This document shows positions 3,383 to 3,914 of a stretch of 21,210 bases of DNA, piece after piece. The translations under genes were made by a program, and so were the position numbers. The stretch's first letter is position 1. Each line of letters starts with the position of its first letter. The stretch comes from a virus (lineage: Duplodnaviria; Heunggongvirae; Uroviricota; Caudoviricetes). Where the stretch lies: IMG/VR virus record IMGVR_UViG_2579778535_000007; one strand, given 5' to 3'. The notes beneath the pieces are model-generated. The model did no database searches. It worked only from the letters and a program-made list of their open reading frames with translations, and was not told where the DNA came from.

Positions 3383-3600
3383 AAAACCCCCTGAACGTCG
3401 GCAGAGAAGGGGAGGTTCCAGTAACTAAGTGAATTGCGCGAGTTAGTTGAAAAACGGGCAGTAAAAATGCAGGGGCCATCAGGCAATTGAGAGCGTGCTT
3501 CGTCTTCTGTTGCTGCGATGACGAAGTGATAGTGGTGTTTTTTGCAGGAATAGAAACGCCAGATGAATTCTTGGCGTGCGCAAGGATTGGCATTAACCAT
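3379..3600 (-). CDS. icd: Icd-like small protein (cell-division inhibitor, 73 aa)
   Basis: 73-aa ORF with GAGG Shine-Dalgarno 8 nt upstream. Stop overlaps the ant start. Lies between a structured leader with a C1 operator and ant. Motif FIWRF…VIAATEDEARSQL…FTARF resembles Icd-like proteins as I recall them. Confidence 0.5.
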   Translation of the reverse strand: MVNANPCARQEFIWRFYSCKKHHYHFVIAATEDEARSQLPDGPCIFTARFSTNSRNSLSYWNLPFSADVQGVL

Positions 3601-3639
3601 AGTTACGGCCTCACAATCAGGTTTAACAACCTGCTACCC

Positions 3640-3820
3640 GCTGCTAAACAGGTGGCAGGACGTGACGGGGTTAGCAGACTGGCGATTGTGAAACCAGCAG
3701 GCCGAAGCCTCCCCATCACGCCCCACCATAATTTGGGCGTAACGCGGTTTTACGGACACAAAAATACCGCAATATCGGATATCTGCGGCTGTCCGCACAA
3801 TCATTCAGGCTGCTAAACCC
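3640..3820 (-). ncRNA. Candidate C4-like antisense RNA and its target repeats in the immI leader (boundaries not resolved)
   Basis: GCTGCTAAAC occurs twice (3640-3649 and 3809-3818); a complementary element GGTTAGCAG lies between them (3669-3677); a third partial copy CTGCTACCC (3631-3639) sits about 19 nt upstream of the icd Shine-Dalgarno on the transcript. Several GC-rich hairpins, for example TGCGG-CTGT-CCGCA at 3784-3797. This mirrors the a1/b1–c4–a2/b2 layout described for P1. Confidence 0.3.
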
Positions 3821-3914
3821 GGTCGCAGAATTTGCTACGACGGCGAAACTATAAGCCTGAACGATTAAAAGGTCAATATGATGCGAAAAGATAGCATTCG
3901 CGACTTAAAAATAC

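What the first reader, a model, noticed from the sequence alone, without database searches (positions are those of the whole stretch)
3600..3840. C4-type antisense RNA arrangement in the icd leader
On the leftward transcript a 10-nt element occurs twice and its complement lies between the copies, with a third partial copy near the icd ribosome binding site. The region is full of GC hairpins. This is the pattern expected if an excised antisense RNA pairs with sites flanking it to control icd–ant translation, as described for P1/P7 C4.
Basis: partly seen in the sequence, partly recalled or inferred. Interest (0 to 1): 0.5.

Follow-up and report, generated by a model that had tools for sequence, protein, structure and literature searches.

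The report
Phage P7 C4 antisense RNA locus
This is the well-known C4 antisense RNA switch of phage P7 (a P1 relative), a small RNA cut out of the leader of the icd-ant operon that pairs with that same leader to keep the antirepressor silent.

Summary
Window 3300-4200 (minus strand) is 99.2% identical to the immI region of phage P7. Rfam finds C4 (RF01695, 69.6 bits against a gathering score of 45) at 3733-3648(-) and its a1/b1 target motif (RF03163, 54.6 against 46.7) at 3854-3802(-).

It contains the known target sites a1 and a2. Its 7-nt complement a' (CTGCTAA, 3677-3671) lies in an unpaired stretch of the 77-nt C4 RNA (3727-3651).

- b1, 3802-3795
- b', 3691-3684
- b2, 3618-3611

b2, not the "third partial copy", covers the icd Shine-Dalgarno sequence. 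The third copy (3639-3631) shows no compensatory change in 27 distinct natural leaders. The a and b pairings are 100% maintained, with 8 pairs changed on both sides.

All six elements are identical to P7's, so the predicted immunity type is P7. As a by-product, natural P1-like plasmid prophages carry 2 a-alleles and 6 b-alleles, in 11 of the 12 possible combinations.

The parts
3915..3931 (-). C1 repressor operator Op(c4) (= Op51), TCTGCTCTAATAAATTT
   Evidence: Mapped from the P7 annotation (protein_bind 50853-50869) through the gap-free 901-nt match. The sequence was read.
3888..3917 (-). Upstream promoter P2c4 (= P51a): -35 TTTGTAT at 3917-3911, -10 TATCTT at 3893-3888. It overlaps the operator.
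   Evidence: Mapped from the P1 annotation through alignment A1. These columns are invariant between P1, P7 and the window.
3848..3876 (-). Promoter P1c4 (= P51b): TTGACC, 17-nt spacer, TATAGT
   Evidence: The promoter scan gives 10 of 12 matches. The position matches the P1 annotation.
   Evidence: Lies inside the Rfam c4-a1b1 hit at 3854-3802. The P1 annotation calls it a 'putative a1 target site'. It pairs with a' in 27 of 27 distinct leaders, with 2 pairs changed on both sides.
3795..3802 (-). b1, upstream C4 target site GATTGTGC
   Evidence: Annotated in P1. The pairing to b' is kept in 27 of 27 leaders, with 6 of 7 pairs changed on both sides.
3651..3727 (-). c4, the 77-nt C4 antisense RNA (GGUGGGG...CCUGCCACC)
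   Evidence: Rfam RF01695, 69.6 bits, E = 5.7e-12. Mapped from the P7 misc_RNA c4. The fold is -44.9 kcal/mol, z = -5.7.
3684..3691 (-). b', recognition loop UCACAAUC in the second hairpin loop of C4
   Evidence: Mean P(unpaired) is 0.96. It is 8/8 complementary to b2 (I8).
3671..3677 (-). a', recognition segment CUGCUAA in the single-stranded junction of C4
   Evidence: Mean P(unpaired) is 0.94. It is complementary to a1 and a2.
   Evidence: Annotated in P1. The pairing to a' is kept in 27 of 27 leaders, with 2 pairs changed on both sides.
3631..3639 (-). Not supported as a target.
   Evidence: There are no compensatory changes, and one pair is broken in 18 of 27 leaders. It stays unchanged when a' switches allele.
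3611..3618 (-). b2, target site GATTGTGA overlapping the icd Shine-Dalgarno GAGG (3612-3609)
   Evidence: Annotated in P1. It pairs with b' in 27 of 27 leaders, with 6 of 8 pairs changed on both sides. The extended duplex is -19.3 kcal/mol.
3379..3600 (-). icd, cell-division inhibitor, 73 aa
   Evidence: 72 of 73 residues identical to P7 Icd. Matches NCBIfam NF033153 phage_ICD_like.
2348..3382 (-). ant1, antirepressor, 344 aa. Its ATG overlaps the icd stop codon (ATGA, 3382-3379). The in-frame ant2 start is GTG at 3133-3131.
   Evidence: 93% identical to P7 Ant1. Contains Pfam PF03374. The overlap was read and the ant2 start.

Best explanation
This is the immI operon leader of a P7-type P1-like plasmid prophage, transcribed leftward.

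Transcription and processing:
- Transcription starts from two promoters (3917-3888 and 3876-3848), the upstream one overlapped by a C1 repressor operator (3931-3915).
- The transcript reads through a1-b1, the 77-nt c4 sequence, a2-b2, icd and ant1/ant2.
- C4 is excised from this transcript. RNase P makes its 5' end; the RNA has a tRNA-like acceptor stem that ends in unpaired ACC.
- C4 folds into a long closing stem that carries two hairpins.

Repression:
- The b' loop (UCACAAUC) and the a' single-stranded segment (CUGCUAA) pair with b2 and a2 in the mRNA.
- The b'-b2 duplex covers the icd Shine-Dalgarno sequence, so icd is not translated.
- The ant1 start overlaps the icd stop (ATGA), so ant translation depends on icd translation. 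The untranslated RNA is prone to premature termination.
- As a result the antirepressor Ant and the division inhibitor Icd stay off, and C1-mediated lysogeny and superinfection immunity are maintained.

The a/b sequences set the specificity. Here they are the P7 alleles, so this element should be immI-homoimmune with P7 and heteroimmune with P1.

What is shown here: sequence identity, covariance-model membership, the fold, accessibility of a' and b', complementarity, natural covariation, and operon layout.

What is taken from the literature and not tested here: excision by RNase P, translational repression, icd-ant coupling and termination.
For: Family membership and identity:
- Rfam C4 and c4-a1b1 hits are both above their gathering scores.
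- The 901 nt are 99.2% identical to P7, where c4, icd, ant1, ant2 and Op(c4) are annotated at the corresponding positions.
- All six elements are identical to P7's. They differ from P1's by the compensatory changes annotated as a1, b1, a2 and b2 in P1.

Structure and accessibility:
- The C4 fold is -44.9 kcal/mol, z = -5.7.
- a' and b' are 94-96% unpaired.
- The b'-b2 duplex is -19.3 kcal/mol and spans GAGG.

Natural covariation:
- In 27 distinct natural leaders, a'-a2, b'-b2, a'-a1 and b'-b1 are 100% paired, with 8 pairs changed on both sides. Only 25-53% of cells pair when partners are slid by 1-3 columns.
- In the wider survey, 11 allele combinations are fully self-consistent.
- Cognate b' with b2 gives about -19 kcal/mol, against -8 to -14.5 for non-cognate combinations.

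Operon context:
- Icd and Ant are intact.
- The icd stop and ant1 start overlap as ATGA.
- A promoter is found at the annotated P51b position.

Literature:
- PMC5320573 summarises the mechanism: a 77-nt RNA, the RNase P 5' end, and b' occluding the RBS.
- PMC8198154 states that full repression of ant needs C4.
- From my own knowledge, not held in the library: Citron & Schuster 1990 (Cell 62:591), Hartmann et al. 1995 (PNAS 92:5822) and Biere et al. 1992 (Genes Dev 6:2409).
Against: - No expression or processing data exist for this particular element.
- In the predicted fold of the processed leader, a2 is largely sequestered (P(unpaired) = 0.04). It sits in a hairpin with an a'-like segment at 3630-3621, so the a'-a2 contact would have to compete with local structure.
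- The host element carries deletions relative to intact relatives. The circuit may therefore operate in a defective prophage.
- The C1 gene is outside the window.
Confidence: 0.95

Rival explanations
1. The same 10-nt element acts three times, at two flanking copies plus a third partial copy near the RBS, and C4 blocks icd translation by pairing with that third copy.
For: In the P7-type sequence, a' could form about 10 bp with GGGUAGCAGG. The isolated duplex is -14.6 kcal/mol, stronger than a'-a2 at -9.0. The site is predicted to be 87% unpaired.
Against: - No pair shows a compensatory change, and one pair is broken in 18 of 27 distinct leaders.
- The site stays GGGTAGCAGG when a' switches to the P1 allele. 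It changes to GGGTCGCAGG or GGGGCGCAGG with no change in a'.
- Part of the pairing uses the CCCC that is buried in the C4 closing stem.
- Its 3' end is 18 nt from the SD, whereas b2 overlaps the SD.
- It is not among the annotated targets in P1.
Confidence: 0.07
2. c4 encodes a small repressor protein (the 56-aa ORF at 3804-3634, minus strand), as was assumed historically. The repeats would then be incidental.
For: An ATG-initiated 56-aa ORF spans the region. The old P1 record X15639 annotates c4 as a CDS (H21).
Against: - Across 28 homologous leaders the start codon is lost (ATA or AAA) in 11.
- The frame is shifted by a 1-nt indel in 8 of the 28 and interrupted early in 1.
- Variation concentrates in the six pairing elements and preserves base pairing rather than codons.
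Confidence: 0.01
3. The repeats and hairpins are a chance feature of a GC-rich leader and have no regulatory role.
For: Short 7-nt words such as GATTGTG are not individually rare: 6 were found against 2.9 expected.
Against: - The 10-mer is expected 0.03 times and is seen twice.
- Folding z-scores are -5.3 and -5.7.
- Two independent covariance models score above gathering.
- Triple covariation holds across natural alleles.
Confidence: 0.01

Closest known systems
c4 / immI of bacteriophage P7 (AF503408; Punavirus)
   Same: - 99.2% nucleotide identity over 901 nt.
- The C4 RNA and a1, b1, a', b', a2 and b2 are identical.
- The operator, promoters, icd and ant1/2 have the same layout.
- Icd is 72/73 identical.
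   Different: - One SNP lies 2 nt downstream of the P51b -10 element (3846, T against C) and one further upstream.
- Ant1 is 93% identical, with a 4-aa deletion in a variable patch.
- The ant2 start codon is GTG rather than ATG.
- The surrounding element carries hok/sok next to repL, and deletions that P7 lacks.
c4 / immI of bacteriophage P1 (NC_005856)
   Same: Same architecture and mechanism, about 95% identity, and the same C4 scaffold.
   Different: - The a elements are TTGACAG / CTGTCAA in P1, against TTAGCAG / CTGCTAA here.
- The b elements are GTTAGTG / CACTAAC in P1, against GATTGTG / CACAATC here.
- These are compensatory changes at all six sites. They are the classical basis of P1/P7 immI heteroimmunity (PMC6906374; Citron & Schuster 1990, from my own knowledge).
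- Upstream of the operator, P1 has the sim genes, where P7 and the window have upf50.5-like lipoprotein genes.
CI RNA of satellite phage-plasmid P4 (immunity RNA processed by RNase P)
   Same: It is a small immunity RNA processed from the leader of the operon it controls. It acts by pairing with repeated target sites in the same transcript (reference cited in PMC5499578; the rest from my own knowledge).
   Different: It has an unrelated sequence and causes premature transcription termination rather than primarily occluding an RBS. It was not tested here.

Membership tests
C4 antisense RNA (Rfam RF01695; P1/P7 immI) | Sequence and structure match to the family covariance model above the gathering score | tested here: met
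   69.6 bits against 45, E = 5.7e-12, full-length match to model positions 1-87 at 3733-3648(-).
C4 antisense RNA (Rfam RF01695; P1/P7 immI) | A long closing stem carrying two hairpins, with b' in a hairpin loop and a' in the single-stranded junction | tested here: met
   The MFE structure equals the centroid at -44.9 kcal/mol, z = -5.7. P(unpaired) is 0.96 for b' and 0.94 for a'.
C4 antisense RNA (Rfam RF01695; P1/P7 immI) | Target sites a2 and b2 lie downstream in the same transcript and are complementary to a' and b', with b2 overlapping the RBS of the first gene | tested here: met
   a2 is at 3647-3641. b2 is at 3618-3611 and overlaps GAGG at 3612-3609, with 8 nt between GAGG and the icd ATG. 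Pairing is 100% with compensatory changes in 27 leaders.
C4 antisense RNA (Rfam RF01695; P1/P7 immI) | Upstream duplicate target sites a1 and b1 (Rfam RF03163) | tested here: met
   54.6 bits against 46.7 at 3854-3802(-). They covary with a' and b'.
C4 antisense RNA (Rfam RF01695; P1/P7 immI) | Location in the leader of a C1-controlled icd-ant operon, with the icd and ant reading frames overlapping | tested here: met
   The operator and promoters were mapped from the P7 and P1 annotations. Icd and Ant were identified. The ATGA overlap is at 3382-3379.
C4 antisense RNA (Rfam RF01695; P1/P7 immI) | Excision of a ~77-nt RNA from the precursor, with RNase P forming the 5' end | not testable with these tools
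   Only the sequence prerequisites are visible: a 5' GG start, an acceptor-like stem and unpaired 3' ACC. Processing is known for P1 and P7 from Hartmann et al. 1995, as summarised in PMC5320573.
C4 antisense RNA (Rfam RF01695; P1/P7 immI) | Repression of icd/ant expression in trans, and immunity specificity set by a' and b' | not testable with these tools
   Inferred from identity to P7 in all six elements and from cognate against non-cognate duplex energies.

The most novel reading that the evidence does not exclude
The locus itself is plain P7-type c4. The least ordinary reading concerns the family.

Natural P1-like plasmid prophages carry a combinatorial code of immI specificities. There are 2 a-alleles and at least 6 b-alleles, and 11 of the 12 combinations are seen. 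Every allele switch is matched not only at a'/a2 and b'/b2 but also at the upstream a1/b1 sites.

The six elements are interleaved in the order a1, b1, b', a', a2, b2. Free reassortment with full self-consistency therefore implies selection on a1/b1 pairing. That would make a1/b1 genuine functional C4 binding sites, for example for feedback on C4 production or as a titrating decoy, rather than the 'putative' sites of the P1 annotation. It would also imply many more heteroimmune immI types than the classical P1/P7 pair.

I could not establish whether this allele survey has already been published.
Probability: 0.5. Interest if true: 0.35.

Novelty: already known. Interest (0 to 1): 0.1.

Why it matters
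For this window it matters only as annotation.

- It identifies the element as a P1/P7-like plasmid prophage with a P7-type secondary immunity system.
- It predicts which related phages the element would exclude or tolerate.
- It shows that the first-stage reader can recognise a textbook antisense arrangement from raw sequence.
- It corrects which element actually covers the icd ribosome binding site: b2, not the partial copy of the 10-mer.

The wider allele survey is a modest by-product. It could guide experiments on immunity specificity and on the unexplained a1/b1 sites.

Tried and rejected
- **Third partial copy as a target.** I counted the pairs on 27 distinct leaders. There were no compensatory changes and one pair was broken in 18 of 27, so I rejected it.
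- **Protein-coding c4.** The 56-aa ORF is not conserved, so I rejected it.
- **A tRNA gene in the region.** ARAGORN finds none in the window.
- **An intrinsic terminator in the leader.** The scan reports only one site, at 3408-3387 at the end of icd, which is no more than shuffles give. The U-rich hairpin between b1 and c4 is not called.
- **RNAcofold of C4 with the leader.** I did not run it. Loop-to-strand kissing contacts are pseudoknotted in a concatenated fold, so I used duplex energies plus unpaired probabilities instead.
- **Primary papers.** The library does not hold these, so statements that rest on them are marked as my own knowledge or cited through PMC5320573 and PMC8198154:
  - Łobocka 2004, looked up as PMC523184
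  - Riedel 1993, PMC204598
  - Hartmann 1995, PMC41593
  - Gilcrease & Casjens 2018, PMC5800970
- **GTDB representative genomes.** The scan with the C4 core pattern gave only 3 loci, too few to add to the survey on their own.

Full report
**What is at the coordinates**

On the minus strand, the Rfam gathering-threshold scan of the whole window gives three hits:
- C4 antisense RNA (RF01695): 69.6 bits against a gathering score of 45, E = 5.7e-12, full-length, at 3733-3648.
- The a1/b1 targets of C4 (RF03163): 54.6 bits against 46.7, at 3854-3802.
- An unrelated sok RNA at 199-25.

Megablast of 3300-4200(-) against GenBank phages finds phage P7 at 99.2% identity over all 901 nt and phage P1 at about 95%. 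The P7 record annotates, at the corresponding positions, the C1 operator Op(c4), a 77-nt misc_RNA c4, icd, ant1 and ant2, followed by kilA and repL. The P1 record additionally annotates promoters P2c4 (P51a) and P1c4 (P51b), and the C4 binding sites a1, b1, a2 and b2.

I transferred these annotations through the three-way alignment and read the bases directly. All coordinates below are window coordinates on the minus strand.

| Feature | Coordinates | Sequence or note |
|---|---|---|
| Op(c4) | 3931-3915 | C1 operator |
| P51a | 3917-3888 | upstream promoter |
| P51b | 3876-3848 | TTGACC-17-TATAGT, also found by the promoter scan |
| a1 | 3816-3810 | TTAGCAG |
| b1 | 3802-3795 | GATTGTGC |
| c4 | 3727-3651 | 77-nt RNA |
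| b' | 3691-3684 | TCACAATC |
| a' | 3677-3671 | CTGCTAA |
| a2 | 3647-3641 | TTAGCAG |
| b2 | 3618-3611 | GATTGTGA |
| Shine-Dalgarno | 3612-3609 | GAGG |
| icd | 3600-3379 | 73 aa |
| ant1 | 3382-2348 | 344 aa |

**Checking the observation**

It occurs exactly twice in 21 kb, at 3818-3809 and 3649-3640, against 0.03 expected. These two copies are a1 and a2 with their flanks.

The complement between them is a'. The exact complement is 7 nt. With flanks it reaches 16 nt at 88% complementarity to the a1 copy (I1).

The third partial copy, GGGTAGCAG, is real and lies at 3639-3631.

The region folds far better than shuffled controls. The z-score is -5.3 for 271 nt and -5.7 for the 77-nt RNA.

It is b2, not the partial copy of the 10-mer, that overlaps the icd Shine-Dalgarno sequence.

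**Testing the pairing model with natural variation**

I fetched 80 Icd-encoding loci from IMG/VR. Later I fetched more loci with a degenerate C4-core pattern.

Across 27 distinct 272-nt leaders (alignment A2), almost all variation falls in the six elements.

- Counting the named pairs gives 100% standard pairs for a'-a2 and b'-b2. Eight pairs are changed on both sides: 6 of the 8 b pairs and 2 of the 7 a pairs.
- The result is the same for a'-a1 and b'-b1.
- When partners are slid by 1-3 columns, only 25-53% of cells pair.
- By contrast, a'-third-copy pairing has no compensatory change, and one position is broken in 18 of 27 leaders.
- The third copy stays constant when a' switches allele, and it changes without any change in a'.

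Cognate b'/b2 duplexes are about -19 kcal/mol, against -8 to -14.5 for non-cognate combinations.

In C4, a' and b' are 94-96% unpaired. The extended b'-b2 duplex (-19.3 kcal/mol) spans the whole GAGG.

**Rivals**

- The 56-aa ORF over c4 is the historical 'c4 protein'. The old record X15639 still annotates c4 as a CDS. Among 28 homologues the ORF loses its start codon in 11, is frameshifted in 8 and is truncated early in 1.
- ARAGORN finds no tRNA gene in the window.
- Chance is excluded.

**Mechanism**

Shown here:
- Membership in the C4 family.
- Identity to P7 in all recognition elements.
- The fold and the accessibility of a' and b'.
- Complementarity and covariation.
- An intact icd: 72/73 identical to P7 Icd and a match to NF033153.
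- An intact ant1: 93% identical to P7 Ant1, with PF03374.
- An ATGA overlap between the icd stop and the ant1 start at 3382-3379.

Taken from the literature:
- C4 is processed to about 77 nt from the operon's own leader, with RNase P forming the 5' end. The b' loop occludes the ribosome binding site, while a' adds specificity (PMC5320573, citing Citron & Schuster 1990 and 1992, Heinrich et al. 1995 and Hartmann et al. 1995).
- Full repression of ant requires C4 in addition to C1 (PMC8198154).
- The small P1/P7 differences in immI account for their heteroimmunity (PMC6906374).
- From my own knowledge, not verifiable in the held library: icd-ant translational coupling, and premature termination when icd is not translated (Riedel et al. 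1993; Biere et al. 1992).

Because the window carries the P7 alleles at all six sites, its predicted immI specificity is P7-type.

**Comparison and novelty**

This is a member of a known family and effectively an allele of a known gene. Every membership feature that sequence can test is met. Processing and trans-repression cannot be tested here.

The finding is already known. I set interest low.

**By-products**

(a) The survey shows 2 a-alleles (TTAGCAG and TTGACAG) and 6 b-alleles (GATTGT, GTTAGT, GTACAT, ACTTAC, ACGAAT and ACTTGT). They occur in 11 of the 12 possible combinations. All parsed leaders are self-consistent at the three a sites and the three b sites, except one apparent single-crossover recombinant. 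The elements are interleaved, so this pattern argues that a1/b1 pairing is itself under selection.

(b) A segment at 3630-3621 is complementary to the 10-mer of both a1 and a2. It is predicted to sequester a2 in the processed leader (I2).

(c) Relative to related plasmids, the window's element has a junction at 12102-12111 and an internal darB deletion near 19116. It also carries hok/sok next to repL. It may therefore be a defective P1-like plasmid prophage.

Noticed in passing
Loci L003-L188 (IMG/VR and GTDB); window elements 3816-3611(-): P1-like immI leaders carry 2 a-alleles and 6 b-alleles in 11 of the 12 possible combinations. Compensatory changes match at a1/a'/a2 and at b1/b'/b2 in every parsed leader but one. 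The window has the commonest combination, which is the P7 type. I could not check whether this diversity has been published.
   Followed up: partly
L032 (same IMG/VR contig as L127, IMGVR_UViG_2565956613_000015), immI leader: This is the single inconsistent leader. Its b1 and b' are ACGAAT-type but its b2 is GTTAGT-type, as expected from one crossover between a2 and b2. C4 is predicted to pair poorly with its own icd RBS.
   Followed up: no
L188, around 3486(+): A more diverged c4 keeps the same core and a-allele. It has a different b element (GTTCAAG) that overlaps the SD of a downstream gene that is not icd. The architecture is the same with a different cargo.
   Followed up: no
window 3633-3620 (-): The a'-like segment CAGGUUGUUAAACC is complementary to the 10-mer region of both a1 and a2: 14 nt at 86% (I2), and 10/10 with G·U pairs. 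In the predicted fold of the processed leader it sequesters a2 (P(unpaired) = 0.04). It tolerates both a-alleles through wobble pairs. Its function is unknown.
   Followed up: partly
window about 3794-3745 (-), between b1 and c4: This is a conserved structured spacer. An outer stem GCGGACA/UGUCCGU abuts b1. An inner CCGCA...UGCGG hairpin is followed by UAUUUUUGUGU and looks terminator-like, but the scan does not call it. It could link C4 binding at a1/b1 to read-through into c4. This is untested.
   Followed up: no
window 3133-3131 (-): The internal ant2 start codon is GTG here, behind an AAGGAGG Shine-Dalgarno sequence. It is ATG in P7.
   Followed up: partly
window 25-199 (-) and 212-538 (-): A hok/sok type I toxin-antitoxin RNA (Rfam sok, RF01794, 114.9 bits) lies just downstream of repL. 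A related plasmid annotates hokD there. P7 similarity starts only at 494, so this module is an accessory of this lineage.
   Followed up: partly
window 12102-12111 and about 19116-19118: Relative to plasmid NZ_CP099334, the window jumps from inside bplA (annotated there as 'bleomycin hydrolase'; truncated here to 299 aa) to the head-processing gene region. About 10 kb is missing, with a 10-nt overlap at the junction. The window also lacks about 2 kb inside darB (1495 aa against 2255 aa). In P7 the two sides of the first junction lie far apart. This is probably a deleted, defective P1-like plasmid prophage or an assembly join.
   Followed up: partly
window 20986-21210: The match to NZ_CP099334 skips an IS3-family transposase that is present in that plasmid between the two flanks. 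The window therefore shows the empty-site version.
   Followed up: no
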